Source of the DNA: an uncultured Candidatus Saccharibacteria bacterium
Lineage (GTDB): Bacteria > Patescibacteriota > Saccharimonadia > Saccharimonadales > UBA10212
Assembly: GCA_964460855.1 (NCBI GenBank)
Contig: CAYWQH010000009.1
Span: 1,351 to 65,350, forward strand
Length of the DNA: 64,000 nt
Direction of reading: 5' to 3'
The notes below the pieces were generated by a model that worked only from the letters and a program-made list of their open reading frames with translations, was not told where the DNA came from and did no database searches. The translations under genes and the position numbers were made by a program. Below, piece by piece: positions 3,062 to 58,527 of this stretch. The stretch's first letter is position 1; every line of letters begins with the position of its first letter.

Positions 3062-3261
3062 GTCTAACCCGTTTTATAAGTGATTTGGCTTAAGTATAAC
3101 AGAAAATTACCCCTGTCTTCACGTGAACAAAGGCCACATAAAACTAGAGATTTGTGGTTAAACCCCGGGTTTCATATGGCCTTACGGCTTTCTACTTTTT
3201 GCGAAACACGTTTTTGTTTTTGGTAAGCTTAAGTGTAATAAGGGTTGGCGGCGGTGTCAAA

Positions 3262-4338
3262 TTACATCTGTAAATTTGGGGCGGGCGAGAGAGTGTAGGG
3301 GTCGGCGGCGGGCTGCTTATGGCTTGCCAGGTAATACCCCAGAGCGGCAACCATGGCGCCGTTATCGGTGCAGAGCTTTATGTCGGTATATAACACCTCT
3401 ATCGGCAAGTTGTTAAGCTCCTGGCGCAGGGCCTGGTTGGCGGCCACGCCGCCGGCGACTACCAGGGAAGCTGGCTGGTACTTATCGATAGCTTTGCGGG
3501 CCGCGCGGAGCAGGGCATCAATGGCGGCGCGCTGGAAACTTGCGGCAATGTTATGCTTTTGGGCTTCGGAGAGCGCCTGTGGCAGCTTTTTGCTGGGGAA
3601 AGCATAATCTTTACCAATTGCTTGCTGGGCGGCCCGTAGCACAGCCGTTTTGAGCCCTGAGAAGCTAAAGTCGTACGGGTTATCCATTTTAGCCAGGGGC
3701 AGGGGAAAAGCGTTGGGGTCGCCCTGGGCGGCAGCCTGGCTGACGCTGGGGCCGCCGGGGTAGGGCAAGCCCAGCATTTTGGCGACTTTATCGAATGCTT
3801 CGCCAACAGCGTCGTCGGCAGTGCGGCCGATTACCTCGTAATCAAAATGGCCCCGGTAAAAAACCAACTGGCTGTGGCCGCCGGAGACAATTAGGGCTAA
3901 AAAGGGAAACTCCGGGACTTTTGCCGGTAGTTTATAACCCGCTAACCCTGTTTTAGTAATGAAATTGGCATAGGGGTGGGCAGCCACGTGGTTGACCGCG
4001 TACAGCGGTTTATCTTTGGCAATCGCTAAAGTGCGGGCGGTTAAAACGCCTATTAACAGGCTGCCGCCCAGGCCGGGGCCATAAGTTACAGCGATGGCGT
4101 CGATTTTAGCCCAGGCTTTTTCGCGCGGCAGGCCGGGGAAGGCGCCGGCCAGGGCCTGGTGGACAACCGGCAGGATAACTTCGATATGGCTGCGGGCGGC
4201 AATTTCTGGCACCACGCCCCCATATTCGGCATGAAGGTCAACGCTGCTGCTAACGGCGTTACTCAGCATTTCGCTGCCATCTTTTACTACGGCCGCAGCA
4301 GTTTCGTCGCAACTAGTTTCAATCCCAAGGATGTTCAT
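3262..4338 (-). CDS. tsaD: tRNA N6-adenosine threonylcarbamoyltransferase
   Basis: N-terminus 'MNILGIETSCDETAAAVV' and 'GGVAAN' are typical of the Kae1/TsaD family; 358 aa. Confidence 0.9.
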   Translation of the reverse strand: MNILGIETSCDETAAAVVKDGSEMLSNAVSSSVDLHAEYGGVVPEIAARSHIEVILPVVHQALAGAFPGLPREKAWAKIDAIAVTYGPGLGGSLLIGVLTARTLAIAKDKPLYAVNHVAAHPYANFITKTGLAGYKLPAKVPEFPFLALIVSGGHSQLVFYRGHFDYEVIGRTADDAVGEAFDKVAKMLGLPYPGGPSVSQAAAQGDPNAFPLPLAKMDNPYDFSFSGLKTAVLRAAQQAIGKDYAFPSKKLPQALSEAQKHNIAASFQRAAIDALLRAARKAIDKYQPASLVVAGGVAANQALRQELNNLPIEVLYTDIKLCTDNGAMVAALGYYLASHKQPAADPYTLSPAPNLQM

Positions 4339-4380: not shown

Positions 4381-5682
4381 ATGAATCCCAGAAAAGTAGT
4401 CAAAAAGGTTATACCAACCAAACTGTTCAAGCAGGTTGAGCCATATGGGCACAAGGGTGAAACCATGCTGTGGCAGGCCAAATACGGTTATCCGGCCAAA
4501 GGGTTGAATGTTATCGGAATTACCGGCACTAACGGTAAGACCTCCACTGCCTTTTTGGCGCACAATATGCTTAATAAAGCCGGCTATAAGGTCGGCCTGA
4601 TGACCACCGTAGCTTACGGGGTGGGCGACAATTTAACGCCCCAAGTGGCCCATATGACCACTGTTTCGCCAAGCACATTGCTGAGCCGCATTAAAGCCAT
4701 GCGGGCCCAGGGAATGGAGTGGCTGGTATTAGAGACCACCAGCCATGCCTTGGCCCAGCACCGGGTGTGGGGCATACCTTATTCCATCGTTGCCATGACA
4801 AATTTAACCCACGAACACCTCGATTATCACGGCTCGTTTGAGAAATACCGCGATGCCAAGCTCCAACTGTTTAAATTGTGCAACGCCAATAAAAACGGCA
4901 GGCAAATCGGCATAGTTAATGCCGACGACCGCTACGGCGAGATGTTTGCCATGGCCATCGCCAACCCGGTTAGCTACGGCCTTAAGCACGGCGATTTACG
5001 GGTCGCAAATCTCAAGTTAACTCCTTCGGGCAGCACGTTTACCGCTAAAACTAACGGCGATGAGTACAATATTGTTTGCCACTTGCCGGGCAGCTTTAAC
5101 GTCAGTAACGCGCTGGCGGCCATAGCTATCGGGCGGGCTGTTGGGCTAAACCGCCAACAGATAGAACAGGGCATTTCAACGCTTAAAGCGGTAGAGGGCC
5201 GGATGAACCGGGTAGACGAGGGGCAGCCGTTTGAAGTTATTATCGACTTTGCCCATACGCCGGACTCCTTCGAAAAGCTATTTAAAGATTTGCGGCCGGT
5301 AGTAAAGGGCAAATTGATCTGCGTGTTTGGCAGCGCCGGGCGCCGCGACCAGGCCAAGCGGCCAATCCAAGGCGGGCTGGCCGGCAAGTACTGTGATGTG
5401 GTTGTAGTTACCGAAGAAGACGACCGAGACATAGACGGCCACAAAATTATGAACGAAATCGCCTCTGGCTCCGAAAAAGCCGGAAAAAAGAAAGACAAAG
5501 ATTTATTCCTGATCCTGGACCGCACCGAAGCTATTAAATTCGCTTTTAGCCAGGCTAAGGCAGGCGATACCGTACTGCTGCTTGGCAAAGGCCACGAAAA
5601 GACTATTGAGCGGGCCGACGGCACCCATGATTGGAACGAAACGGCCACCGCCACAGCCCTACTCAAAAAACTAAAAACATAA
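4381..5682 (+). CDS. murE: Mur ligase family protein (MurE-like UDP-MurNAc-tripeptide synthetase)
   Basis: P-loop 'GITGTNGKTST' with Mur ligase central and C-terminal domain pattern ('DFAHTPDS', 'GSAGRRD'). The N-terminal domain is short. Confidence 0.65.
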   Translation: MNPRKVVKKVIPTKLFKQVEPYGHKGETMLWQAKYGYPAKGLNVIGITGTNGKTSTAFLAHNMLNKAGYKVGLMTTVAYGVGDNLTPQVAHMTTVSPSTLLSRIKAMRAQGMEWLVLETTSHALAQHRVWGIPYSIVAMTNLTHEHLDYHGSFEKYRDAKLQLFKLCNANKNGRQIGIVNADDRYGEMFAMAIANPVSYGLKHGDLRVANLKLTPSGSTFTAKTNGDEYNIVCHLPGSFNVSNALAAIAIGRAVGLNRQQIEQGISTLKAVEGRMNRVDEGQPFEVIIDFAHTPDSFEKLFKDLRPVVKGKLICVFGSAGRRDQAKRPIQGGLAGKYCDVVVVTEEDDRDIDGHKIMNEIASGSEKAGKKKDKDLFLILDRTEAIKFAFSQAKAGDTVLLLGKGHEKTIERADGTHDWNETATATALLKKLKT

Positions 5683-5808: not shown

Positions 5809-6603
5809 TTACGACAACTGGAGAGTTAAACACTTAACCCCGCCGCCAGATTTTTGAAACTCGGTTATAGGGGTGGTTATAACATTCATGCCGCGGTTGC
5901 GGTATTCGCCAACCAAATTTTCGGCGCCCTGGGGTATGACTATATTGTGGCCGTCGCTCATGGCATTTAGCCCGTAAGCCATGGCGTCGCCGTAATTCGC
6001 TTCTATAACGTTCGGTACGATTTCCAGTACCGATTGGATACTGGCCGGGGTAAAAGCCGGCGGGTAAAGGGCGACAGTATCGTTAGATACGATGGTTAAA
6101 GCCGTATCTAGGTGGTAAAACCGCGGGTCAGTAAGTTGTAGGCTAACCGCCCGCACGCCTAAAAAGTCGCCCACTTCGCGGTGCGAGGGCTTATCGCTGC
6201 GCCAGGGAAAGCCGCTAAACAGGATGTCGTTAAAAAACAGGGCGTCGCCTTCGCCTTCAAAATCGTACTTTGGTTTATAAAACTCGGTAAAACCGTTACC
6301 GCGGAACCAGGTTTCAAACGCTTCGGTTTCCGGCTGGCGGTCGGGCTGGCGGAAATTGGGCAGCACAACTTTGCTGCCGCGCAATAAACCGCCATTGGCG
6401 GTAAACACCATGTCCGGCAACCCTTGCACTGGATCGACCAGTTTAACTTCCCAGCCTAACTGCTGAGTGTAAATATCGTATAAGCTTTGCCACTGGCGGC
6501 CGGCCTCATCCGGCTGAACCTGGTTGTCGGTATGCATCCAGGGATTGATTTCGTACTCGATATCAAAAAAGTCCGGCCGGCACATCAAAATGTTTTTTGC
6601 CAT
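5809..6603 (-). CDS. amidinotransferase / DDAH / arginine-deiminase superfamily protein
   Basis: 'FYHLDTAL' and the C-terminal catalytic-Cys context 'GGGVKCLTL' are typical of guanidino-group modifying enzymes. Confidence 0.65.
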   Translation of the reverse strand: MAKNILMCRPDFFDIEYEINPWMHTDNQVQPDEAGRQWQSLYDIYTQQLGWEVKLVDPVQGLPDMVFTANGGLLRGSKVVLPNFRQPDRQPETEAFETWFRGNGFTEFYKPKYDFEGEGDALFFNDILFSGFPWRSDKPSHREVGDFLGVRAVSLQLTDPRFYHLDTALTIVSNDTVALYPPAFTPASIQSVLEIVPNVIEANYGDAMAYGLNAMSDGHNIVIPQGAENLVGEYRNRGMNVITTPITEFQKSGGGVKCLTLQLS

Positions 6604-8831: not shown

Positions 8832-8851
8832 GCGAAAGGTATCACACAGTT

Positions 8852-10498
8852 ATGGCTAAAAAAGTTTTTTATGACGACGACGCCCGCCGCCGCGTGTTGG
8901 GCGGGGCAAAAGTTTTATACGACGCTGTGAAAACCACTATGGGCCCCAAAGGCCGCAATGTGGTGATCAGCAAAAGTTACGGCAACCCAACTGTTACCCA
9001 CGACGGCGTAACAGTTGCTAAGGGTGTAGACCTGGAAGACGTCGACGACGAAACCCTGGGCTACAAAGTCGGTGCCGAGCTGATCAAGCAGGCCGCCAGC
9101 AAAATGAATGATGTAGCCGGTGACGGCACAACTACCGTAACGGTTTTGACTTACCATATTTTAAGCGAAGCGAATAAGCTGATAGCCGCCGGCCACAGCC
9201 CGATGCTGCTGCGCAAAGGGCTGGAAGCCGCCTCGCACGAAGTATTAACCAAGCTTGGCGGCATGGCCGAAGATATTGCCGGCAATAACAAGCGGGTGGC
9301 CGAAGTTGCCACCATTAGCGCCGGCGACGCCGAAATCGGCAAGCTAATCGCCGACGTCATGGATAAAGTCGGCAAAGACGGCGTAGTTACCGTAGAAGAA
9401 GGCCAGGGCCTGGCCCTGGAGAGTGAAGTCGTCGAAGGTTTCACTTTCGACCGCGGTTACGTCAGCCCTTATATGGTTACCGACACGGCCCGCATGGAAG
9501 CCGTTTACGATAAACCAGCCATCTTAGTTACCGACGCTAAAATCAGCTCCATCCAGGACTTTTTGCCGATGCTCGAAAAACTGGCCCAGTCCGGCAAAAA
9601 AGACCTGGTTATCGTAGCCGAAGACGTCGACGGCGAAGCTTTAGGAACATTAATCCTTAACAAACTCAAAGGCGTTTTCAATACCGTCGCCATAAAAGCC
9701 CCAGCCTTTGGCGACCGCCGCAAAGAAATTTTAGAAGATATCGCCATATTAACGGGCGGCCAGGTCATCAGTGAAGAGCAGGGCACCACGTTCGAAAATG
9801 CCGAGCTGGATATGATCGGCACCGCCCGCCGGGTAATCGCCACTAAAGACGAAACGACGATTATCGAAGGCAATGGCAGCCAATCGGCCATCAAAGAGCG
9901 GATTGCCCAAATCGCCAAGCAAATCGAAGCCGCTACTAGCGAATACGACAAAGAAAACCTCGAAAAGCGCCGGGCCGCTTTGCAGGGCAAGGTTGCTGTA
10001 ATTAAAGTCGGCGGCGCTACCGAAACCGAAATCGAAGAAAAGAAATTCCGCGTCGACGACGCCGTGCACGCCGTTAAAGCCGCATTGGACGAAGGTATTG
10101 TGCCGGGTGGCGGCGTCACGCTGGTAAACCTGATATTCGAAGTCACTCCGCTTACATCCGAACATACTTCGGTACTTGCCGGCCAAAGCTTACTGTTCAG
10201 AAGTTTCGAACAGCCATTCCGCATTTTGCTGGACAACGCCGGTATTAACCCCGACGAATGGTTGCCCCAGGTCCGCAAGGCCAAGCCGGGCCATGGCGTA
10301 GATGTCAGCAATCCGACCAAGCTTGTTGACCTTAAAGCTGCTGGAATTATTGACCCGGCCCGCGTCACTAAAGAAGCAATCCAAAACGCTGTGTCGATTG
10401 CCGGTACAGCTATGACCATGGGCGCTTTAGTTGCAGATGTGCCAGAGCCAAAATCCGCCCCGACTCCCGATATGGGCGCAATGGGCGGAATGATGTAA
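8852..10498 (+). CDS. groEL: chaperonin GroEL
   Basis: 'AGDGTTTVTVL', 'VAVIKVGGATE' and a C-terminal 'GGMM' tail; 548 aa. Confidence 0.97.
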   Translation: MAKKVFYDDDARRRVLGGAKVLYDAVKTTMGPKGRNVVISKSYGNPTVTHDGVTVAKGVDLEDVDDETLGYKVGAELIKQAASKMNDVAGDGTTTVTVLTYHILSEANKLIAAGHSPMLLRKGLEAASHEVLTKLGGMAEDIAGNNKRVAEVATISAGDAEIGKLIADVMDKVGKDGVVTVEEGQGLALESEVVEGFTFDRGYVSPYMVTDTARMEAVYDKPAILVTDAKISSIQDFLPMLEKLAQSGKKDLVIVAEDVDGEALGTLILNKLKGVFNTVAIKAPAFGDRRKEILEDIAILTGGQVISEEQGTTFENAELDMIGTARRVIATKDETTIIEGNGSQSAIKERIAQIAKQIEAATSEYDKENLEKRRAALQGKVAVIKVGGATETEIEEKKFRVDDAVHAVKAALDEGIVPGGGVTLVNLIFEVTPLTSEHTSVLAGQSLLFRSFEQPFRILLDNAGINPDEWLPQVRKAKPGHGVDVSNPTKLVDLKAAGIIDPARVTKEAIQNAVSIAGTAMTMGALVADVPEPKSAPTPDMGAMGGMM

Positions 10499-18229: not shown

Positions 18230-18319
18230 GGAGAGGTCGCATAGTGGCCGAGTGCGCTACCTTGGAAAGGTAGTATAGGGGCAACTCTATCGAGGGTTCG
18301 AATCCCTCTCTCTCCGCCA
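18230..18319 (+). tRNA. tRNA-Ser (anticodon GGA), CCA encoded
   Basis: Acceptor stem GGAGAGG/CTCTCTCC, anticodon stem-loop CTACC-TTGGAAA-GGTAG, a long variable arm, T-arm GAGGG-TTCGAAT-CCCTC, and a terminal GCCA. Confidence 0.9.
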
Positions 18320-18353
18320 ATCTTTTCGCTAAAATCTATTTAGCGAAAAGATT
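18320..18353 (+). terminator. 13-bp hairpin directly after the tRNA
   Basis: AATCTTTTCGCTA-aaatctatt-TAGCGAAAAGATT. Confidence 0.5.
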
Positions 18354-18361
18354 GACCCTGA

Positions 18362-18494
18362 GCGAATCCGCGGGAGCGGATGAGTCGAAGGGCCCTTACT
18401 GCTGCGTTAGCGATCCAAGAAAAAATACTGGTGGGTCGAAATCCCTCCCTGCCGGAAGGCGACGCGTCGAAGGGCCCGAACTGCCGCGTCAGCG
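18362..18494. repeat. two tandem degenerate repeat units containing tRNA 3'-end-like fragments
   Basis: 29-nt cores at 18384-18412 and 18466-18494 (GTCGAAGGGCCC..ACTGCnGCGTnAGCG) match at 25/29. The segment GGGTCGAAATCCCTCCCTGCC at 18430-18455 resembles the tRNA-Ser T-arm/acceptor 3' end. Confidence 0.6.
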
Positions 18495-27359: not shown

Positions 27360-27452
27360 ATTTACATTTATCAGGTATCATTGCTCATTTATTTATCATT
27401 TTATAATTGGTAAATGTTAAATAAATTGTGAAATGCTAAATGATAAATGATA
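27360..27452. repeat. AT-rich imperfect palindromic module (TCATTTA/TAAATGA repeats), an empty paralog of the module around 56829-57240
   Basis: The left arm ATTTACATTTA... (27360-27400) and right arm AAATGCTAAATGATAAAT (27431-27448) match the flanks of the four-helix-bundle gene. Confidence 0.6.
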
Positions 27453-27475
27453 ATTGTCTCAAAAGGAGACATCTT

Positions 27476-38775: not shown

Positions 38776-39309
38776 ATGTTAGGTATCAGAAAAATCAGTC
38801 CAATGGCCCGCGCCATCGGCACAATGGGAGTGGTCGCAACACTCGTCGGTGCAGTAACATTCGCAGCAGTAACATCAAATACAGTAGCCTTAACAGATAA
38901 CAATTTAACTAGTGGAACTCCCATGCTCCAAATTGGGACCGCTGTAGATCCTTTTGGAAATAGTGCAACTGGATTAACTGCAACGCTAAAACCAAATATT
39001 CCCAAGTCATTTACTTTCTTTTTGCAAAATAACGATACAAGCCCGCTTACAATAACAGCAAGTATACCGAGCAGTTTTGCAGGTTCTCAAATTCCGCCTA
39101 GCGCAGTTACTATGGCTTTAGATTGTGGTAGCGGCAGTGTTAGTTTCCCCATTAGTTCATGGGCAGGAGGCAGCGCGCCAATTCCAGGTACGGTAGCAGC
39201 AAATGGTGGTATTGCAACCTGTACTGAAACTGTAACATTGGACGCATCCTATAGTCCAAGTGGTAACACGCTAAATTCTTACACTATAAATTTTGTAGGT
39301 AACGAATAA
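38776..39309 (+). CDS. TasA/camelysin-like secreted protein with SipW-cognate-type signal peptide
   Basis: The N-terminus 'ARAIGTMGVVATLVGAVTFAAVTSN' resembles SipW-dependent signal peptides. It is immediately followed by a SipW-type peptidase gene. Low-GC locus. Confidence 0.55.
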   Translation: MLGIRKISPMARAIGTMGVVATLVGAVTFAAVTSNTVALTDNNLTSGTPMLQIGTAVDPFGNSATGLTATLKPNIPKSFTFFLQNNDTSPLTITASIPSSFAGSQIPPSAVTMALDCGSGSVSFPISSWAGGSAPIPGTVAANGGIATCTETVTLDASYSPSGNTLNSYTINFVGNE

Positions 39310-39326
39310 TAAAATAGTAGTTACTA

Positions 39327-40601
39327 ATGAAGTGGCCAAAAAGACTTTTCATTAGTATTTGCATTACTTTCCTATTGATATGTTGCGGCGTAATGCTGCT
39401 ATTTAATTTGTCGGTTACTGGCTGGAAAGCTTTAACCGTACAAACTGGCAGCATGCGCCCGATTATTCCTAAGGGATCTTTGGTATTGATGCACCGAGTC
39501 CCCGAAAAAACTTTAAAAATCGGGGATGTAATCACCTATGCCAACCCAAGAAAATTGAATACGACTATTACACACAGGGTAATAAATAAATATGAAAAAC
39601 AAAATGTAACTTACTACGTAACTAAGGGCGATGCTAATTCTACTGCAGATCAACCGATTACTTCAGGACTTGTTAGAGGGCAGGCGGTTTATCATATGCC
39701 ATATATTGGCGGTTTTCTAAATTGGTCCAAAAAACCAATTGGCTTAATGTCTATGATTTATATTCCAGCATTAATAATAATGATTACCGAAACAATAAAA
39801 CTTGCTCAATATTACAAGAAAAAACAACCGTATCGTTTACGCAGGGCAACAGTCATTAGTAAGGCAGAAAATAACATTGCATTACCAATGACATTATTTA
39901 CTATTTCATTTATTTTAGTTTTCTCGTTTACTGGTGCTACTGTCAAGGCTTTACTACATAGCAATACTGTAGCTTTAGCAAATAATCATATTACTTCTGA
40001 GTCAGCTAATAATTCTGGGATATTGTTCAATAAAGTTATTTTCAGGTGTTCAGACGATAACACGCCAACCGCCAGTAAGCGCCCACTGATAGAAATAAAC
40101 AACCCGACCAAGCAGGATGTAAACATCACCGGCTGGCAAATTAAGGATAACAACGGGGTGATTGTTACATTTTCTAGTTCAACTATTATCCATAAACATA
40201 AAAAGCTGCAAGTCACGCCGCTGCTGAGTAACGGATTGCAGTATGCCGGTGACCGTTTGGGTTTGTATAACACCCAAAATGTACTCGTCGACGGGCTAAG
40301 CTGGGGCAGCGACCATACTTACCTCAACCCGGCGATTACTGGAGTTGGAGCCGGCACCCGCCTCAAACGCGTTCCGCCCAAAAAAGATACCGACACTAAA
40401 AACGATTGGAACGTTACCGGCCATAAGTGCGCAAAAGATGACGACGGCCACGGGCACCACGACGACGGCGACCACGAGAGTGACGGCGACCGGGACGGAG
40501 ATAAAGGCGACCAAGACGAGCACTGCTTCGACAGCCGCGACGAAACCGACCGCGTCCACGTTACGGGCATGTACCACTTCTTAGAATTAAACGAAGACTA
40601 A
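39327..40601 (+). CDS. signal peptidase I, SipW/archaeal type, fused to a lamin-tail-like domain and an Asp/His-rich tail
   Basis: 'TGSMRP', 'ITHRV' and 'TKGDAN' peptidase motifs. An LTD-like segment 'INNPTKQDVNITGWQIKDNNG...GDRLGLYN...VDGLSWG'. A C-terminal 'DDDGHGHHDDGDHESDGDRDGDKGDQDEH' tail in GC-rich DNA. Confidence 0.7.
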   Translation: MKWPKRLFISICITFLLICCGVMLLFNLSVTGWKALTVQTGSMRPIIPKGSLVLMHRVPEKTLKIGDVITYANPRKLNTTITHRVINKYEKQNVTYYVTKGDANSTADQPITSGLVRGQAVYHMPYIGGFLNWSKKPIGLMSMIYIPALIIMITETIKLAQYYKKKQPYRLRRATVISKAENNIALPMTLFTISFILVFSFTGATVKALLHSNTVALANNHITSESANNSGILFNKVIFRCSDDNTPTASKRPLIEINNPTKQDVNITGWQIKDNNGVIVTFSSSTIIHKHKKLQVTPLLSNGLQYAGDRLGLYNTQNVLVDGLSWGSDHTYLNPAITGVGAGTRLKRVPPKKDTDTKNDWNVTGHKCAKDDDGHGHHDDGDHESDGDRDGDKGDQDEHCFDSRDETDRVHVTGMYHFLELNED

Positions 40602-43039: not shown

Positions 43040-43918
43040 TTGCGTGTCCCGACCGACGGGTGGCTGAATGGTGGCTGGAACAACAAGCGCCAGCAGTTCT
43101 ACCTACTGGGCGAGACGGTGGGCCTCGAGCCTAACCCGTCTCCGGAACAGTTGCAGGATACGCTTCGCCGGGTTAGCTCGGCGAAGGTCTTCGCGGAGTC
43201 CATCGCGGACTTCGTGGAGGCGACTGGTATGACCACCAAGCAGGTGGCAGACCGTCTGAAGACGGTCAACCACCAGCTGGGGGTCATGGATCCGCTGCCG
43301 TTCATGTCGCTCAAGGGTCACTGCGACCCGAAGAGCTTCCGCGGCACGGCCATCTGGCCCGCCGGTACGGTTGCCTGGATGCAGCTCCGCTGGGAGCAGA
43401 TCCAGCTGGCCGAGCTGGCCGGCGCGACTTTCGAGCGCGTCATCGTGCTCGGAAGTTCGCGCCAGTGCAACGCTCCGGCCGACCGCCGGCATCCCTACGT
43501 CAACGGGGTCTTCCCCGAGGGCAAGGAGCCGACCGAGCTCGAGCTCATGAAGCAGTGGGTGTTCGCATCCGGCCGAAACACCGGCCAGTATTTGTTCCCC
43601 GAGCTGGACGAGCACAACGAGCAGGGCAAACCGCTCTCGCTGGAGCAGATGCTCCGGCAGTACGGCGAGCGGTACGAGCCCTTCGCGCCTGACTCCCAGG
43701 TGTACGTTCCGGCCAACCCGAACGCATTGTACGTGCCACTGCACGTGCGCCGTGTACTCGGCCTGGACGATGTCTGGCTCAGCCAGGGCGGAGCCCGTCT
43801 GTACAGCGAGATGCCGCCGTACTGGTGGCCCAGCTGCCAGGACCTGATGACGACGCCTTCGGGCATCTTCAGGCTCTGGATCGAGCTGATCCGCAACGGC
43901 TGCATCAACAGCCGGTAA
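43040..43918 (+). CDS. hypothetical protein, GC-rich cassette
   Basis: GC3-biased frame. A TTG at 43040 lies 8 nt after AAGGAGG; the longest ORF begins at a GTG at 43031, abutting the SD. Confidence 0.6.
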   Translation: MRVPTDGWLNGGWNNKRQQFYLLGETVGLEPNPSPEQLQDTLRRVSSAKVFAESIADFVEATGMTTKQVADRLKTVNHQLGVMDPLPFMSLKGHCDPKSFRGTAIWPAGTVAWMQLRWEQIQLAELAGATFERVIVLGSSRQCNAPADRRHPYVNGVFPEGKEPTELELMKQWVFASGRNTGQYLFPELDEHNEQGKPLSLEQMLRQYGERYEPFAPDSQVYVPANPNALYVPLHVRRVLGLDDVWLSQGGARLYSEMPPYWWPSCQDLMTTPSGIFRLWIELIRNGCINSR

Positions 43919-49472: not shown

Positions 49473-49527
49473 GTGATAATCACGGGGCTCCCCGCACGGA
49501 TCCGAAGATCCGCGCGGGGAATACCCC
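49473..49527. repeat. 55-nt GC-rich palindromic repeat, copy A
   Basis: GTGATAATCACGGGGCTCCCCGCACGGATC-cgaa-GATCCGCGCGGGGAATACCCC. It pairs with copy B at 50072-50127. Confidence 0.85.
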
Positions 49528-49556
49528 TTCTGCCTATTGTCCGGGCCGGGTCCGCG

Positions 49557-50015
49557 CTAGGCGGCGCGCCGGAAATCGATTTCCGGCAGCTCGTCCTCGA
49601 GACTGAGCTGGCCGCTCCGGCGGTTCGGATGCCGCAGGGTCGGATGTTCGACCACCTGGGCTTCGCGCTGCCGTTGGGCCGTGTTGCGCAGCAGCCGGAG
49701 GACTTCGGCCTTGCCGTACGTGTCGCTCCATGCCATCAGGATGGCGAGGAGTTCGACGCCGCCTTTGGCCAGCGTGGTGAAGTACTTGTCGCGCCTACGG
49801 CGCAGCTCGTCAGCCAGCGCCTCCGCCAGGTCGGCCGGGATGATATCGTCGACGTTGTCGTCGTTGACCTCGTCGTAGCCGAGGGCCTGGCCGATGGCCG
49901 TCAGCTGGCAGCCACCGAGGCCGCAGTTGCCGGTGCCCCAGCCGCGCCGCCAGCCGTAGATCTCGATGTTGTAGGCCGCTCGGCATAACACATCCGCGTA
50001 CACTGGACCTCCCAT
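49557..50015 (-). CDS. hypothetical protein, GC-rich cassette
   Basis: 152 aa with a GC3-biased frame. The start is the ATG at 50015, or the GTG at 50003 if GGGAGG serves as the SD. Confidence 0.6.
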   Translation of the reverse strand: MGGPVYADVLCRAAYNIEIYGWRRGWGTGNCGLGGCQLTAIGQALGYDEVNDDNVDDIIPADLAEALADELRRRRDKYFTTLAKGGVELLAILMAWSDTYGKAEVLRLLRNTAQRQREAQVVEHPTLRHPNRRSGQLSLEDELPEIDFRRAA

Positions 50016-50071
50016 TTCGGGGATTTGCAGAATAAGCTTAAAGTAACCTAATTTATAATTTTTAGCAATTC

Positions 50072-50127
50072 GTGATAATCGCGGGGCACCCCGCGCGGAC
50101 CTTGTGAGTCCGCGCGGGGAAGGCCCC
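50072..50127. repeat. 56-nt GC-rich palindromic repeat, copy B
   Basis: GTGATAATCGCGGGGCACCCCGCGCGGAC-cttgtga-GTCCGCGCGGGGAAGGCCCC, with a perfect 12-bp stem. Confidence 0.85.
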
Positions 50128-55949: not shown

Positions 55950-56825
55950 ATGCCCGAACTGCCCGAGGTAGAAACGGTTAAGCGCGGCCTGAGCAAGCTG
56001 TTGCCGGGTTTAGCTATTGCCGACGTCCACCACGACTGGGCCAAGTCTTTTCCTAACGCGCCTCATGATGTGATGCGGTTTATGATTAAGGCCAAAGTTT
56101 TAAGCGTACGGCGGCGGGCCAAAGTATTAATTATCGATTTAAGTACCAAACACAGTTTAATTATCCACCTTAAAATGACCGGCCAGCTGGTGTTTGTGGG
56201 CCAGGAGCGGTTCGGCGCCGGCCATCCCAGCGATTCTTTGGTAAATAAACTGCCTGATAAATCTACCCGCGTCACCATCGATTTTAAAGACGGCAGCAAG
56301 CTGTTTTTTAACGACCAGCGTAAGTTCGGCTGGATGCGTTTGATACCGACTATCGAAATACCGGAAATCGACTTTTTCAAAAAAGTCGGCCCCGAGCCGC
56401 TAGACGATAACTTTAGCGTTACGGCTTTTTCAAAGCAGTTAATGCGACGCCAAAACAGCGGTATTAAAGCGGTGCTTTTAGACCAGACAGTGATAGCCGG
56501 CGTCGGCAATATTTATGCCGATGAATCGCTGTGGATGGCCAAAATCCATCCTGAAACACTCGTAAAAAACATTCCTAAAAGTAAAATCGTGGCTTTGTTT
56601 AGCGACCTTCGAGAAGTATTACTACTTAGTATTAAAAAAGGCGGCAGCTCCGACCGTAATTACGTAAATGCCGAGGGCAAAAAGGGCAGCTATATAAGTT
56701 TCGCCAAAGTATTCCGGCGTGAAGGCCAGCCTTGCCAGCGCTGCGGCAACACAATAATAAAGACACGCGTCGCCGGCAGAGGCACCCATCTTTGCCCAAT
56801 TTGCCAAAAACTCAAGAAACCTTGA
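55950..56825 (+). CDS. mutM: formamidopyrimidine-DNA glycosylase
   Basis: N-terminal 'MPELPEVETV' and a C-terminal zinc finger 'CQRCGNTI...CPICQ'. Confidence 0.92.
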   Translation: MPELPEVETVKRGLSKLLPGLAIADVHHDWAKSFPNAPHDVMRFMIKAKVLSVRRRAKVLIIDLSTKHSLIIHLKMTGQLVFVGQERFGAGHPSDSLVNKLPDKSTRVTIDFKDGSKLFFNDQRKFGWMRLIPTIEIPEIDFFKKVGPEPLDDNFSVTAFSKQLMRRQNSGIKAVLLDQTVIAGVGNIYADESLWMAKIHPETLVKNIPKSKIVALFSDLREVLLLSIKKGGSSDRNYVNAEGKKGSYISFAKVFRREGQPCQRCGNTIIKTRVAGRGTHLCPICQKLKKP

Positions 56826-56868
56826 GCAATTTACATTTAACACTTATCAATCCACAATTTATTTAACA

Positions 56869-57231
56869 ATGAACATTTCTCAAGTGCGAGCTATGGAACT
56901 TGAAGAGCGTATGTCGGATTTTGCTCTTTCATGTATTAATTTATCCAGAGAATATTCAACAAACATGGAAAATAAAATAATACTAAATCAATTAGTAAGG
57001 TCATCTGCATCAATAGGTGCAAATTATGCAGAAGCAAATAATGCCGGGTCTCGAGCTGATTTTAGAAATAAATTGTATTTAAGTAAAAAAGAAGCATCTG
57101 AAACAAGGTATTGGTTAAAATTATTAGGCAGGGCGAATATAAGTATCAGCACTATTAAATTAGTTGATGAATGCACTGAATTAATACTAATCTTACAAAA
57201 ATCAATTAACACTTTGAAAAATGCTAAATGA
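56869..57231 (+). CDS. four-helix-bundle protein (23S rRNA intervening-sequence protein family)
   Basis: 'QLVRSSASIGANYAEANNAGSRADFRNKLYLSKKEASETRYWLKLL' is the family signature. The gene is very AT-rich. Confidence 0.8.
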   Translation: MNISQVRAMELEERMSDFALSCINLSREYSTNMENKIILNQLVRSSASIGANYAEANNAGSRADFRNKLYLSKKEASETRYWLKLLGRANISISTIKLVDECTELILILQKSINTLKNAK

Positions 57232-57266
57232 TAAATAAATGATTAATGACAAATGGTAAATGACCA

Positions 57267-58187
57267 GTGGTAACGACATTAACGGGAAATAATGCTTTTG
57301 GGCTGCGCGCCGAACTGAATAAGCTAATTTCTGGATTTACAGATCAGTTTGGCGACTTGGCATTGGAAAAATTCGACGGCGATGAGGCTTCGGTGGAACA
57401 AATATTTGATGCCGTGCAAGCCTTACCGTTTTTATCGCCAAAGAAAATGGTGGTGGTACGCAACGTTAGCTCACTGCCGGAGGCAAATGAAAAAATCGGC
57501 GAGTTGGTTGCTTTGGCCGGCGAAACGGACCTGGTGCTTTACGAGCCCAAACTGGATAAGCGCACCAGCCTATATAAAACCCTAAAAACCAAATCCGATT
57601 TTAAAGAATTAAACGAACTGGAGGGCGGGCAGCTTTCGAGATGGCTGGTGGATGAGGCTAAAAAAGAGGGGGCAGAGCTTTCATTTTCCGATGCCTCTTA
57701 CTTAATAAGCCGGGGCGGCCATAACCAGATGATGCTATCGCAAGAAATTGCCAAGCTGGCGCTGTATGAGCCTAAAATCACCCGGCAAAATATCGACCTG
57801 TTGGTAGAGCCGGTTCCGCAGAGCCGGATTTTTGACCTGCTGGACGCGGCTTTTGCCGGGCAAGCACTCAGGGCATTGGAATTATACGAAGACCAGCGCG
57901 CCCAAAAAGCTGAGCCCCAGCAAATACTGGCCATGATAACCTGGCAGCTGGGCGTACTGGCAACGGTAATCGCCGCCGGCAACCGGCCGGCCGACGAAAT
58001 TGCCCGGCAGGCCCGGATCAGCCCGTACTCGGTGCGTAAATGCATGGATTTAAAACGAAAGATTACTTTAACAAAATTAAAACAACTGGTGGCCGATTTG
58101 CTGGAAATTGATATTAAATCTAAAACGTCGTCATACAGTTTAGATGACGGCCTGCGGCATTTTATTATCTCGATAAACCAGGCTTAA
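57267..58187 (+). CDS. holA: DNA polymerase III subunit delta
   Basis: 306 aa with a GTG start, 'LPFLSPKKMVVVRN', and a HolA-like three-domain length and pattern. Confidence 0.75.
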   Translation: MVTTLTGNNAFGLRAELNKLISGFTDQFGDLALEKFDGDEASVEQIFDAVQALPFLSPKKMVVVRNVSSLPEANEKIGELVALAGETDLVLYEPKLDKRTSLYKTLKTKSDFKELNELEGGQLSRWLVDEAKKEGAELSFSDASYLISRGGHNQMMLSQEIAKLALYEPKITRQNIDLLVEPVPQSRIFDLLDAAFAGQALRALELYEDQRAQKAEPQQILAMITWQLGVLATVIAAGNRPADEIARQARISPYSVRKCMDLKRKITLTKLKQLVADLLEIDIKSKTSSYSLDDGLRHFIISINQA

Positions 58188-58190
58188 AAT

Positions 58191-58243
58191 GACGAACGCC
58201 CCGCGCCGGATCTGGGTAGATCCAGGCGCGGGGCGGTTCGTTC
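58191..58243. terminator. long GC-rich compound hairpin
   Basis: GACGAACGCCCCGCGCC-GGATCTgggtAGATCC-aGGCGCGGGGCGgTTCGTtC. Its core is related to the 49.5/50.1 kb repeats. Confidence 0.55.
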
Positions 58244-58254
58244 CGAGTGCGCCG

Positions 58255-58527
58255 TCAGTCGACAGGCAGCTCCTTGAGCTTGACGCCCACGCAGGACAGC
58301 GAGGTGGCGAAGCCGACGCCGGCGACGATGGACAGACCGAGAGCGTCGGCCCAGTACAGGTGCCTTACCGAGATCGGGGTGTGCCACGGGCCGATGACCA
58401 GCCACGTCATAAACGCGGCCGTGACGCCGGCGGCGGCCAGGAACACGTAGAACGCGCCCTCGTCGAAGCAGATGCAAACGAGGAGAGCCGACACGATGAT
58501 CAGCGCCGACACGATGAAGAACAACAC
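58255..58527 (-). CDS. 90-aa three-TM membrane protein, GC-rich cassette
   Basis: GTG start 6 nt after AGGAGG, with TATAAT at 58567-58562 (minus strand). The frame is GC3-biased and hydrophobic. Confidence 0.55.
   Translation of the reverse strand: MLFFIVSALIIVSALLVCICFDEGAFYVFLAAAGVTAAFMTWLVIGPWHTPISVRHLYWADALGLSIVAGVGFATSLSCVGVKLKELPVD

What the first reader, a model, noticed from the sequence alone, without database searches (positions are those of the whole stretch)
56826..57262. A four-helix-bundle (23S-IVS-type) gene sits inside an AT-rich palindromic module that also exists empty elsewhere
The very AT-rich gene 56869-57231 is flanked on the left by ATTTACATTTAACACTTATCAATCCACAATTTATTTAACAAT (from 56829). 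On the right it is flanked by AAATGCTAAATGATAAAT... plus further TAAATGA-type repeats (57219-57262); the stop codon lies inside that repeat. The same two flanks occur back to back at 27360-27452, with only about 30 nt between them and no gene. The left arm matches at about 33/41 and the right arm at 18/18. In both places the module starts 1-4 nt after the stop of the upstream gene (gdh; mutM) and ends just before the next gene. This is a filled-site/empty-site pair, which implies the four-helix-bundle gene is, or was, mobile within a hairpin-forming intergenic module.
Basis: seen in the sequence. Interest (0 to 1): 0.6.

Follow-up and report, generated by a model that had tools for sequence, protein, structure and literature searches.

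The report
Helix-bundle gene cassette framed by heptamer repeats
A small, conserved four-helix-bundle gene of the kind first found inside ribosomal RNA insertions sits here between two housekeeping genes, framed by mirror-image runs of 7-base repeats; a gene-less copy of the frame lies elsewhere in the window, and the same design recurs in every phylum sampled, linking this protein family to bacterial heptamer repeats whose role is unknown.

Summary
Gene 56869-57231 is a TIGR02436/PF05635 four-helix-bundle protein (30% GC in a 51% GC window). It is flanked by two arms of degenerate tandem heptamers that are reverse complements of each other. A 96-nt gene-less palindrome of the same arms lies at 27360-27455. 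Arm similarity scores 99, against 35.8 +/- 4.6 (maximum 53) for 500 shuffles.

The design holds across the sample. In 84 related loci, 82% have flank complementarity above the 95th percentile of control genes. Lag-7 identity is 0.49 against 0.28. Unit sequence differs between lineages while mirror symmetry is kept. Eight plasmid loci from cyanobacteria, Chloroflexota, Bacteroidota and a spirochaete also carry flanking heptamer arrays.

Gene-less modules are internal-deletion derivatives of full cassettes, shown in locus L072; they are not empty landing pads. The mutM|holA copy is old: at least eight lineages share it and relatives appear to have lost it. The gdh|mscL module is absent from every relative sampled.

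Closest known are the 23S rRNA intervening sequence with its S23p ORF, and the unexplained heptamer arrays of Xanthomonas, where one array overlaps the start codon of XCC0516, a member of this family. How the arms work is inferred, not shown.

The parts
56826..56868 (+). Left arm of the cassette. About six degenerate heptamers (AATTTAC ATTTAAC ACTTATC AATCCAC AATTTAT TTAACA) fill the whole mutM-to-ORF spacer and end at the ATG. No Shine-Dalgarno motif is present.
   Evidence: Sequence. Matches the gene-less module at 33/41 direct and 40/48 in reverse orientation. It is 76-86% identical to left arms in other genomes and gene contexts, where third codon positions of the ORF are only about 40% identical. 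An SD-like motif is present in 3/85 family members against 25% of control ORFs.
56830..56858 (+). Promoter-like site inside the left arm: TTTACA, 17 nt, CACAAT. The second hexamer ends 10 nt before the ATG, which predicts a leaderless or near-leaderless mRNA. This is an inference.
   Evidence: Consensus scan. The same TTTACA-N17-CACAAT arrangement occurs in 27 of 84 related loci, with the -10 hexamer ending 9-10 nt before the ATG in 30 of the 37 loci that have any promoter-like site.
56869..57231 (+). Four-helix-bundle protein gene (TIGR02436 / PF05635; S23p, 23S rRNA-IVS protein family; Avd-like fold). 120 aa, 30% GC.
   Evidence: Pfam and NCBIfam matches. It carries all 20 columns that are invariant in the alignment of 26 sequences. 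AlphaFold2 model with pLDDT 93.8 shows four helices. Best structural matches are 2rld (TM 0.79-0.88), then 2gsc, then Avd 4dwl and 8ub7. A profile search of PDB sequences hits 2rld at 8.7e-26.
57219..57262 (+). Right arm: AAATGCT AAATGAT AAAT AAATGAT TAATGAC AAATGGT AAATGAC, the reverse-complement type of the left arm. It starts inside the last four codons and contains the stop codon. holA (GTG 57267) begins 5 nt after it.
   Evidence: Sequence. Exact 18-mer shared with 27431-27448. It is 84% complementary over 37 nt to 27365-27401 (I2). Detected as a period-7 array at 57235-57262.
27360..27455 (.). Gene-less palindromic heptamer module in the gdh|mscL junction. Its two halves (about 27360-27401 and 27412-27455) correspond to the two cassette arms in either orientation, around a loop at about 27402-27411.
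   Evidence: Sequence. DNA hairpin of -15.5 kcal/mol, z = -4.1. Similarity to the cassette arms scores 99 against 35.8 +/- 4.6 for shuffles. The window's own cassette ties for the best match among 84 cassettes. The module is absent from the gdh|mscL junctions of relatives. It is identical in an independent assembly.

Best explanation
This is an IVS-type four-helix-bundle cassette together with a gene-less derivative of it.

The unit has three parts: a left array of about 4-6 degenerate heptamers, a 120-aa TIGR02436 ORF, and a right array of the reverse-complement heptamers. This is the same design as the S23p-encoding intervening sequences of 23S rRNA. Here it is lodged in the junction of two co-directional protein genes, mutM and holA.

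Shown:
- The gene and its arms travel and are conserved as one unit.
- The arms are under stronger constraint than synonymous sites.
- The design holds across this sample of the family, in several phyla.
- Gene-less palindromes arise from full cassettes by internal deletion between short direct repeats.
- The cassette has been at mutM|holA for a long time.
- The gdh|mscL module is absent from all sampled relatives.

Inferred working:
- The cassette is a self-contained expression unit. The left arm carries a sigma-70-like promoter whose -10 hexamer ends about 10 nt before an ATG that has no ribosome-binding site, which predicts a leaderless mRNA. The right arm carries the stop codon.
- The two mirror-image arrays act as cis sites that bring the cassette ends together. 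They could do so by pairing with each other, in DNA or in RNA as in rRNA IVSs that RNase III cuts. They could also do so by being bound as tandem heptamers by a protein. The most economical candidate is the encoded ring-forming (pentameric in homologues) Avd-like protein.
- Either way, the insert would be tolerated inside an operon, and a gene-less copy would remain recognisable.
For: Identity of the gene.

Arms homologous to the gene-less module, beyond chance.

Flank rule across the sampled family (84 loci):
- Complementarity of the upstream flank to the reverse complement of the downstream flank has a median score of 29. This compares with 15 for shuffled flanks, 14 for the direct orientation and 13 for 250 control genes. 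82% of loci exceed the control 95th percentile.
- Lag-7 identity is 0.486 and lag-14 is 0.425, against 0.276 in controls.
- Unit sequences differ between clades, but the left and right consensus units stay reverse complements, matching at 5-7 of 7 positions in 29 of 34 loci.
- Arrays are short and uniform, about 4 units.
- RNA duplex energy of the arms has a median of -25.5 kcal/mol and a median z of -3.2.

Unit moves and is conserved together: the same arms occur with close homologues at mutM|holA, PNPase|UDG, ABC2|x, HSP20|comF and x|glycosyltransferase. Left arms are 76-86% and right arms mostly 74-82% identical, while ORF third positions are about 40% identical.

Operon passenger: the neighbouring gene is co-directional upstream in 58/77 and downstream in 70/79 loci, and the arms fill the spacers. 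There is no SD (3/85), and the promoter-like motif is conserved.

Deletion origin of gene-less copies: L072. Other gene-less palindromes.

Site history.

Other phyla: eight plasmid loci, all with heptamer arrays. In the first 50 kb of a Planktothrix plasmid, arrays occur only around its four-helix-bundle gene and share its units.

Literature:
- The Coxiella IVS has a stem of inverted repeats cut by RNase III, three or four tandem heptamers before the S23p ATG, and a poor SD (PMC4990558).
- A four-unit GGGAATC array overlaps the start codon of XCC0516, the protein of PDB entry 2GSC (PMC4692102, S2 Table A row 15).
Against: - No direct evidence exists for transcription starts, RNA processing, protein-repeat binding or any mobility mechanism.
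- The cassette encodes no recognisable recombinase or nuclease.
- No target-site duplication is evident by eye.
- The arm mismatches show no sense-strand G.U signature. There are 81 G.U-compatible mismatches against 123 A.C. The antisense duplex is slightly more stable than the sense duplex (51 loci against 33, p = 0.008).
- The window's own arms pair only weakly as sense RNA: -15.9 kcal/mol, z = -1.4. The fold of the whole cassette is unremarkable, z = 0.04.
- Much of the complementarity survives a 7-nt shift (0.75 against 0.62), so a fixed stem is not demonstrated.
- Stems are only about 79% Watson-Crick.
- The promoter-like motif is limited to one large clade (27/84).
- Heptamer arrays elsewhere in the loci mostly do not share the unit of the nearest cassette (median rank 30 of 84). 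This weakens a simple model in which the local protein binds the local arrays.
- Only two clear modules are visible in this 64-kb window.
Confidence: 0.6

Rival explanations
1. Pure RNA model, as for rRNA intervening sequences. The cassette is transcribed by read-through from mutM. Its arms form a long imperfect double-stranded RNA stem. RNase III cuts the stem, releasing the four-helix-bundle mRNA and separating the mutM and holA messages. The heptamer periodicity would be incidental.
For: - RNase III excision at the inverted-repeat stem is experimentally shown for the Coxiella IVS, which has the same ORF family and heptamers (PMC4990558).
- Arm duplexes are stable across the sampled family, with a median of -25.5 kcal/mol and z of -3.2.
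- Cassettes are co-directional with their neighbours, and the arms abut the neighbouring ORFs.
- The minimum-free-energy fold of 56820-57275 pairs the two ends.
Against: - There is no sense-strand G.U enrichment, and the antisense duplex is slightly better.
- The window's own sense duplex is weak, z = -1.4.
- Complementarity largely survives 7-nt shifts.
- Solitary, unpaired arrays are common: 89 in the loci examined and most of the 186 arrays in Xanthomonas. This model cannot explain them.
- The strong sequence conservation of the arms exceeds what pairing alone needs.
Confidence: 0.25
2. A hairpin-forming intergenic module exists first and is dispersed on its own. The four-helix-bundle gene is a passenger that inserts into, or hops between, such modules, so the copy at 27360 is a vacant site.
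For: - Gene-less palindromic heptamer modules exist in several genomes. In Xanthomonas, repeat arrays far outnumber any plausible count of such genes: 186 arrays, with 70 cases of closely spaced inverted pairs.
- The gdh|mscL module has no gene and no recognisable ORF 5' end.
Against: - In L072 both gene-less modules retain the ORF's first 17-24 nt and last 17 nt, fused at an 8-nt direct repeat. This is the signature of deletion from a full cassette.
- The window's module retains the last codon and the stop.
- The ORF ends are built into the arms: the stop codon lies inside a heptamer, and the arm runs to the ATG. Gene and arms are conserved as one unit in all contexts.
Confidence: 0.1
3. Nothing specific. 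These would be two AT-rich intergenic palindromes, such as terminators, attenuators or UP-like elements, that resemble each other through low complexity and happen to flank a horizontally acquired AT-rich gene.
For: - The regions are very AT-rich (module GC 0.21), and promoter-like matches abound in such sequence.
Against: - The permutation test and the real AT-rich controls exclude chance.
- No intrinsic terminator was found in or next to the cassette. Near the gene-less module the scan found one weak minus-strand terminator-like hairpin at 27455-27471, no more than shuffles give.
- The flank design recurs in 84 related loci and eight plasmid loci from several phyla, with clade-specific units.
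- Period-7 arrays are 18-fold rarer in control loci from similar organisms.
Confidence: 0.02

Closest known systems
23S rRNA intervening sequences that carry an S23p ORF (Leptospira, Coxiella burnetii and others)
   Same: The ORF belongs to the same protein family (PF05635/TIGR02436). It is bounded by inverted repeats that can form a stem. Tandem heptamers lie directly upstream of the ATG (GACAGAT x3-4 in Coxiella). The ribosome-binding site is poor or absent. The overall size is about 430 nt (PMC4990558).
   Different: The element here lies between two protein-coding genes, not in helix 25 or 45 of 23S rRNA. No rRNA motifs were found in any of the loci fetched up to that point. A promoter-like site sits in the left arm. 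RNase III processing has not been shown and is not favoured by the mismatch pattern. The protein looks fully conserved here, whereas in Coxiella it is decaying.
Over-represented heptameric tandem repeats: GGGAATC arrays of Xanthomonas, GGGGAYT of Nostoc, cyanobacterial STRR sequences, and the heptanucleotide elements of Geobacter metallireducens
   Same: The arrays mostly have about four units. Many form closely spaced inverted pairs that sit in operon junctions a few nucleotides after the upstream gene, for example groES|groEL and atpA|atpG. Their function is unknown. One array overlaps the start codon of XCC0516, a member of this protein family (PMC4692102; PMC2700814).
   Different: Those papers do not connect the repeats with the four-helix-bundle family. 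The units here are AT-rich and cannot form the G-quadruplexes proposed there. Genome-wide copy number in this organism is unknown; two clear modules are seen in 64 kb.
REP sequences/REPINs and their RAYT gene
   Same: The architecture matches: a single gene flanked by inverted copies of a short repeat, and the same repeat also dispersed as gene-less inverted doublets in intergenic regions.
   Different: RAYTs are HUH tyrosine transposases. The four-helix-bundle protein has no known catalytic activity. The repeats here are tandem heptamer arrays, not single palindromes. No dependence of the arrays on the protein has been shown.
Avd, the accessory protein of diversity-generating retroelements
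   Same: Same fold and superfamily (Foldseek hits 4dwl and 8ub7, TM about 0.6-0.7). Avd is a pentamer that binds nucleic acid and the reverse transcriptase.
   Different: The neighbours are mutM and holA. No reverse transcriptase or template/variable repeat pair lies adjacent. Sequence similarity to Avd is low (14%).
MITEs (miniature inverted-repeat elements derived from larger elements by internal deletion)
   Same: The gene-less module consists of the two terminal inverted arms of the larger unit. In L072 it was produced by internal deletion.
   Different: The parent unit has no transposase, no target-site duplication is evident, and copy number is low in the data at hand.

Membership tests
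TIGR02436 / PF05635 four-helix-bundle (S23p, 23S rRNA-IVS protein) family | Profile match above the curated cut-off | tested here: met
   PF05635 at 61.4 bits (cut-off 33.8). TIGR02436 at 82.9 bits (cut-off 24).
TIGR02436 / PF05635 four-helix-bundle (S23p, 23S rRNA-IVS protein) family | Four-helix-bundle fold like BT_0352 (2rld) and XCC0516 (2gsc) | tested here: met
   AlphaFold2 model with pLDDT 93.8 and four helices. Foldseek matches 2rld at TM 0.79-0.88 and 2gsc at up to 0.82.
TIGR02436 / PF05635 four-helix-bundle (S23p, 23S rRNA-IVS protein) family | Conserved motif GxxRxxxSxxxNxxE (as given in PMC3936711) | tested here: met
   R44, S48, N52 and E55 are present. S48, N52 and E55 are invariant and R44 is nearly invariant (90% or more) in the alignment. 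The first position is Q41 instead of G throughout this clade.
TIGR02436 / PF05635 four-helix-bundle (S23p, 23S rRNA-IVS protein) family | Homopentameric ring | not tested
   Only a monomer was modelled. The homologue crystal structures 2rld and 2gsc each list five chains, A to E.
23S rRNA intervening sequence (IVS) element | Inserted in a 23S rRNA helix and transcribed as part of the pre-rRNA | tested here: not met
   The element lies between mutM (55950-56825) and holA (57267-58187). No rRNA signature motifs were found in any of the loci fetched up to that point.
23S rRNA intervening sequence (IVS) element | S23p ORF bounded by inverted repeats, with tandem heptamers before the ATG | tested here: met
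   compared with PMC4990558.
23S rRNA intervening sequence (IVS) element | Excision by RNase III at the stem | not testable with these tools
   Indirect tests are not supportive: there is no sense-strand G.U signature, and the window's sense duplex has z = -1.4.
DGR accessory protein Avd | Encoded next to a DGR reverse transcriptase with a template/variable repeat pair | tested here: not met
   The immediate neighbours are mutM and holA, and in relatives other housekeeping genes. The rest of the window was not scanned for a reverse transcriptase.
Inverted heptamer-array pairs of the Xanthomonas GGGAATC type / STRR-like repeats | Tandem heptamers of about four units, as closely spaced inverted pairs in gene junctions | tested here: met
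   Module at 27360-27455. Arm arrays have a median of about 4.2 units. Compared with PMC4692102 S2 Table A.
Inverted heptamer-array pairs of the Xanthomonas GGGAATC type / STRR-like repeats | High genomic copy number of one unit type | not testable with these tools
   Only 64 kb of this genome is available. It holds two clear modules and one doubtful one.
MITE / REPIN-like mobile repeat | Terminal inverted repeats and derivation from a larger unit | tested here: met
MITE / REPIN-like mobile repeat | Cognate transposase (for example a RAYT) and target-site duplication | tested here: not met
   The only gene in the unit is the four-helix-bundle protein. No duplication is visible at either module's borders (inspected by eye only).

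The most novel reading that the evidence does not exclude
Four-helix-bundle (S23p/Avd-like) proteins are the missing trans-acting partners of bacterial heptameric tandem repeats. These repeats include cyanobacterial STRRs, the Xanthomonas GGGAATC arrays, the Geobacter heptanucleotide elements, and the arms and gene-less palindromes seen here.

Under this reading each ring-shaped protein recognises arrays of about four or five cognate heptamers. The gene flanked by its own arrays is the master copy, and the dispersed gene-less arrays and palindromes are its dependents. That would be a REP/RAYT-like relationship built on a non-enzymatic, nucleic-acid-binding ring. Such a system could also explain why these cassettes can live inside rRNA and inside operons.
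Probability: 0.25. Interest if true: 0.85.

Novelty: new variant of a known kind. Interest (0 to 1): 0.66.

Why it matters
Two old puzzles would become one testable question.

- The ORF of 23S rRNA intervening sequences was described in the early 1990s. Its large family of "four helix bundle proteins" still has no known function outside DGR Avd.
- Heptameric tandem repeats are strikingly over-represented in some bacteria. They include the STRRs of cyanobacteria and the GGGAATC arrays of Xanthomonas. No role or origin is known for them.

The data here show that, in every phylum sampled, genes of this family are framed by mirror-image heptamer arrays. Gene-less versions of the frame exist at operon junctions. 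Period-7 arrays also concentrate around these genes.

This gives concrete experiments: binding of the protein to four or five heptamers, mapping of transcript ends, and deletion of XCC0516 paralogues. It also gives a practical annotation rule: an AT-rich 120-aa ORF with no ribosome-binding site, wedged between operon genes and framed by 7-nt repeats.

It explains, too, why these genes turn up inside cas, DISARM/BREX and restriction-modification operons without needing to be part of those systems.

Tried and rejected
- A blastn self-comparison as a hairpin finder returned nothing usable, because palindromes are reported as self-overlapping hits. I replaced it with a lag-7 array detector and local alignments.
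- Rfam found no match on the cassette region. PADLOC and PHROGs found no match for the protein.
- The Ralph & McClelland 1993 paper is not held in the library. Three literature searches for a stated link between this family and heptamer repeats found none.
- I tested whether heptamer arrays elsewhere in a locus share the unit of the nearest cassette. Mostly they do not (median rank 30 of 84; only 12 of 94 in the top five), so I dropped the simple model in which the local protein binds the local arrays.
- I tested for an RNA-level signature, namely G.U tolerance on the sense strand. The result was the opposite trend.
- I looked for an allelic filled/empty pair in independent assemblies of the same population. 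All were identical.
- I looked for a four-helix-bundle gene at gdh|mscL in 80 related metagenome loci. There was none.
- I looked for cassettes inside rRNA among the fetched loci. There were none.
- I considered the cassette as a DGR Avd. I rejected this for lack of an adjacent reverse transcriptase or template repeat. The whole window was not scanned.
- I considered an intrinsic terminator or attenuator. I rejected this because no terminator-like site is present and because the flank design recurs across the sampled loci.
Full report
**1. The observation**

The window is about 51% GC and comes from a Saccharimonadales-like (CPR) genome. The nearest homologues are annotated as Candidatus Saccharimonadales or Saccharibacteria.

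ORF 56869-57231 (120 aa, 30% GC) is a TIGR02436/PF05635 four-helix-bundle protein. It lies between mutM (55950-56825) and holA (57267-58187).

The 43-nt spacer before the ORF, and the 44 nt that start inside its last four codons, are runs of degenerate heptamers. The left run is of the ATTTACA type and the right run of the AAATGAT/TGNTAAA type. The two are reverse complements of each other (I1 and I2).

The same two arms lie back to back at 27360-27455, between gdh and mscL.

- Because the module is a palindrome, the reverse orientation fits even better: 40/48 and 31/37.
- The summed alignment score is 99. For 500 dinucleotide shuffles it is 35.8 +/- 4.6 (maximum 53). For 144 real AT-rich windows it is at most 45.
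- The gene-less module folds as a hairpin with z = -4.1.
- These two places hold the only period-7 arrays in the 64 kb.

**2. The design recurs across the sample**

Close homologues (50-64% identical) occur in other gene contexts: PNPase|UDG, ABC transporter|x, HSP20|comF, x|glycosyltransferase, and again mutM|holA. All have the same kind of flanks.

A scan of one genome per species gave 80 more loci. Over 84 loci with full flanks:

- The upstream flank matches the reverse complement of the downstream flank with a median score of 29. Shuffled flanks give 15, the direct orientation 14, and 250 control genes in the same loci 13. 82% of loci exceed the control 95th percentile.
- Lag-7 identity in the flanks is 0.486 and lag-14 is 0.425, against 0.276 in controls.
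- The unit sequence changes from clade to clade (ATTTACA, CAATGNT, GTAACAG, ATTTCTA, AAGTTTA and others), yet the right arm stays the mirror image of the left.
- Arrays are short and uniform, about four units.
- The arms run up to the ATG and into the stop codon.
- The genes almost never have a Shine-Dalgarno motif: 3/85 against 25% of control ORFs.
- The genes are AT-richer than their surroundings in 83/85 loci.
- Neighbouring genes are mostly co-directional, and the arms fill the spacers.
- In the window's clade the left arm holds a conserved TTTACA-N17-CACAAT motif ending 9-10 nt before the ATG.
- Left arms are 76-86% identical between genomes and contexts. Third codon positions of the ORF are only about 40% identical, so the arms are under strong constraint.

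Eight annotated plasmid loci all have heptamer arrays next to the "four helix bundle protein" gene. They come from Nostoc, Planktothrix, Aulosira, Gloeocapsa, Pseudanabaena, Chlorohelix, Bernardetia and Treponema. The arrays are inverted in most and direct in Treponema.

Several of these genes are wedged inside defence operons: cas2|cas1, drmD|pglX, helicase|methylase and DUF1156|Swt1.

In the first 50 kb of the Planktothrix plasmid, all six period-7 arrays lie in the operon that contains the gene, and they share its units.

**3. What the gene-less module is**

In L072 (a Yanofskybacteria MAG), a full cassette lies at 5977-6342. Two gene-less modules lie on the other strand at about 2096-2220 and 4601-4720.

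The better-preserved of these two modules (about 4601-4720) aligns at 68/73 with the left arm plus the first 24 nt of the ORF. It aligns at 67/73 with the last 17 nt of the ORF plus the right arm. The other (about 2096-2220) aligns at 65/74 and 55/64. In both, the two alignments overlap in TCAGAAAT, a direct repeat present at both ends of the ORF.

These modules are therefore internal-deletion derivatives of a cassette, not vacant sites. The window's module keeps the left arm up to the base before the ATG, and the last codon plus the stop plus the right arm. This is consistent with the same origin, although the 13-nt junction is not informative.

Other gene-less heptamer palindromes exist in unrelated loci: L060 (z = -5.4), L095 and L012.

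**4. Site history**

*mutM|holA.* The cassette is at, or next to, this junction in L006, L012, L013, L016, L018, L019, L039 and L073.

Five holA relatives chosen without regard to the cassette lack it:

- L173/L174 and L177 have mutM and holA overlapping by ATGA.
- L172 has a 43-nt spacer without heptamers.
- L175 and L178 have other small genes at the junction.

On a neighbour-joining tree of mutM+holA, the cassette-less genomes are nested within cassette-bearing ones. Long residence with at least two losses is therefore more parsimonious than five or more gains at one junction.

*gdh|mscL.* Among 80 loci with gdh 52-63% identical, about ten keep the gdh|mscL adjacency. All of these have short plain spacers. 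None has a heptamer module or a four-helix-bundle gene. On these data the window's module is confined to its own lineage.

Both modules are identical in independent assemblies from four or five sequencing runs.

**5. How it may work**

The protein is well conserved: 20 invariant columns in 26 sequences. Its model matches the homologue crystal structures 2rld and 2gsc, each deposited with five chains, and more distantly the DGR protein Avd.

*Pairing.* The arms could pair. The median RNA duplex energy is -25.5 kcal/mol with z = -3.2. In the Coxiella IVS such a stem is cut by RNase III. Three results argue against a simple sense-RNA stem:

- Arm mismatches are not enriched for G.U on the sense strand (81 against 123 A.C).
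- The antisense duplex is slightly more stable, and the window's own sense duplex is weak (z = -1.4).
- Most of the complementarity survives a 7-nt shift (0.75 against 0.62, with a background of 0.32).

*Recognition of tandem units.* Several observations point to the tandem heptamer array itself as the recognised element:

- The length is uniform at about four units.
- The sequences are strongly conserved.
- Solitary arrays exist, some of them inside ORFs.
- Period-7 arrays are enriched 18-fold in these loci relative to control loci from similar organisms, while other periods are equal (22.2 against 1.2 per 100 kb).

The encoded ring protein is the most economical candidate reader. That is an inference. 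It is weakened by the finding that nearby arrays usually have other units than the local cassette.

**6. Comparison with what is known**

The closest known element is the S23p-carrying IVS of 23S rRNA. It has the same ORF family, bounding inverted repeats, heptamers before the ATG and a poor SD. The element here fails the defining feature of being inside rRNA.

The gene-less module closely resembles the inverted GGGAATC pairs of Xanthomonas. Those are four-unit arrays, 21-67 nt apart, a few nucleotides after the upstream gene in junctions such as groES|groEL and atpA|atpG. Their function is unknown (PMC4692102).

That paper's own table places a four-unit array over the start codon of XCC0516, which is the crystallised member of this family (2GSC). 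The paper does not remark on it.

Geobacter metallireducens has similar four- and five-unit heptanucleotide elements, attributed to an "unidentified global regulator".

I found no paper in the searchable library that links the protein family to heptamer repeats beyond the Coxiella IVS. The library is incomplete, so prior notice elsewhere cannot be excluded.

The architecture is analogous to REP/RAYT: a gene framed by inverted copies of a repeat that also occurs gene-less. The protein, however, is not a known enzyme.

**7. Verdict**

The thing is an IVS-type four-helix-bundle cassette outside rRNA, with a MITE-like gene-less derivative. It is a new variant of a known kind.

The wider pattern links the family with heptamer arrays in every phylum sampled. 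This is the more interesting result and deserves a genome-scale test.

Noticed in passing
L072:1052-5885 (also L014, L021, L025, L037 downstream of their cassettes): Tandem heptamer arrays lie in frame inside glycosyltransferase ORFs next to four-helix-bundle cassettes, for example the peptides KLQVTSYKLQDQ and NFQFPISNFQF. In all, 41 of 96 arrays not adjacent to a cassette are inside ORFs of at least 150 aa. A one-unit slip would shift the frame, so these could be phase-variation tracts in surface-sugar genes.
   Followed up: partly
window:59095-59205: In the intergenic region between rpsT (S20, minus strand) and the next gene there are three or four AGCTTTC units. An 11-nt perfect inverted repeat (AAGCTTTCAGC ... 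GCTGAAAGCTT) sits about 65 nt apart. This may be a third, degenerate heptamer palindrome of another unit type. Its fold is not significant (z = -1.4).
   Followed up: partly
L180-L187 (plasmid loci); L188:6167-22582: In cyanobacterial and Chloroflexota plasmids the four-helix-bundle genes sit inside defence operons: between cas2 and cas1, between DISARM drmD and BREX pglX, between a helicase and an N6-methylase, and between DUF1156 and a Swt1 HEPN gene. In the Planktothrix operon, arrays of the same unit also occupy another gene junction (8834-8898).
   Followed up: partly
L077:3150-7620: In a Moraniibacteria locus, copies of the cassette's left arm (3251-3281, 4268-4304), embedded in a longer repeated segment, lie upstream of unrelated small genes. 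By eye these look like a PemK/MazF-like toxin and a Fic-domain protein. Two four-helix-bundle cassettes lie nearby. The region looks like an island of small cassettes sharing one upstream repeat.
   Followed up: no
window:57255-57275 and L173:2990-3010, L177: holA has no ribosome-binding site and starts 5 nt after the right arm. In cassette-less relatives mutM and holA overlap by ATGA, which implies translational coupling. The cassette therefore interrupts a coupled gene pair. In relatives the holA start codon sits at or inside the last heptamer.
   Followed up: partly
window:7200-8400, 43200-43800, 49500-50100, 58200-58500 versus 39300-40200: Base composition is strongly mosaic. Several islands reach 65-69% GC, and one AT-rich stretch is 34-37% GC. 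The AT-rich stretch covers the 5' part of a 424-aa ORF (39327-40601) whose N-terminal part looks membrane-anchored by eye. The 58200-58500 island has long ORFs on both strands.
   Followed up: no
window:58598-58700: The S20 gene ends in a lysine/alanine-rich repeat tail (AAKKPAAKK...). It shows up as a 15-nt direct-repeat family in the repeat search.
   Followed up: no
window:18307-18494: A 27-nt inverted repeat with a 5-nt loop (18307-18365) is followed by two 42-nt direct repeats 82 nt apart (18371-18412, 18453-18494). The local GC is low (37%). Not examined.
   Followed up: no
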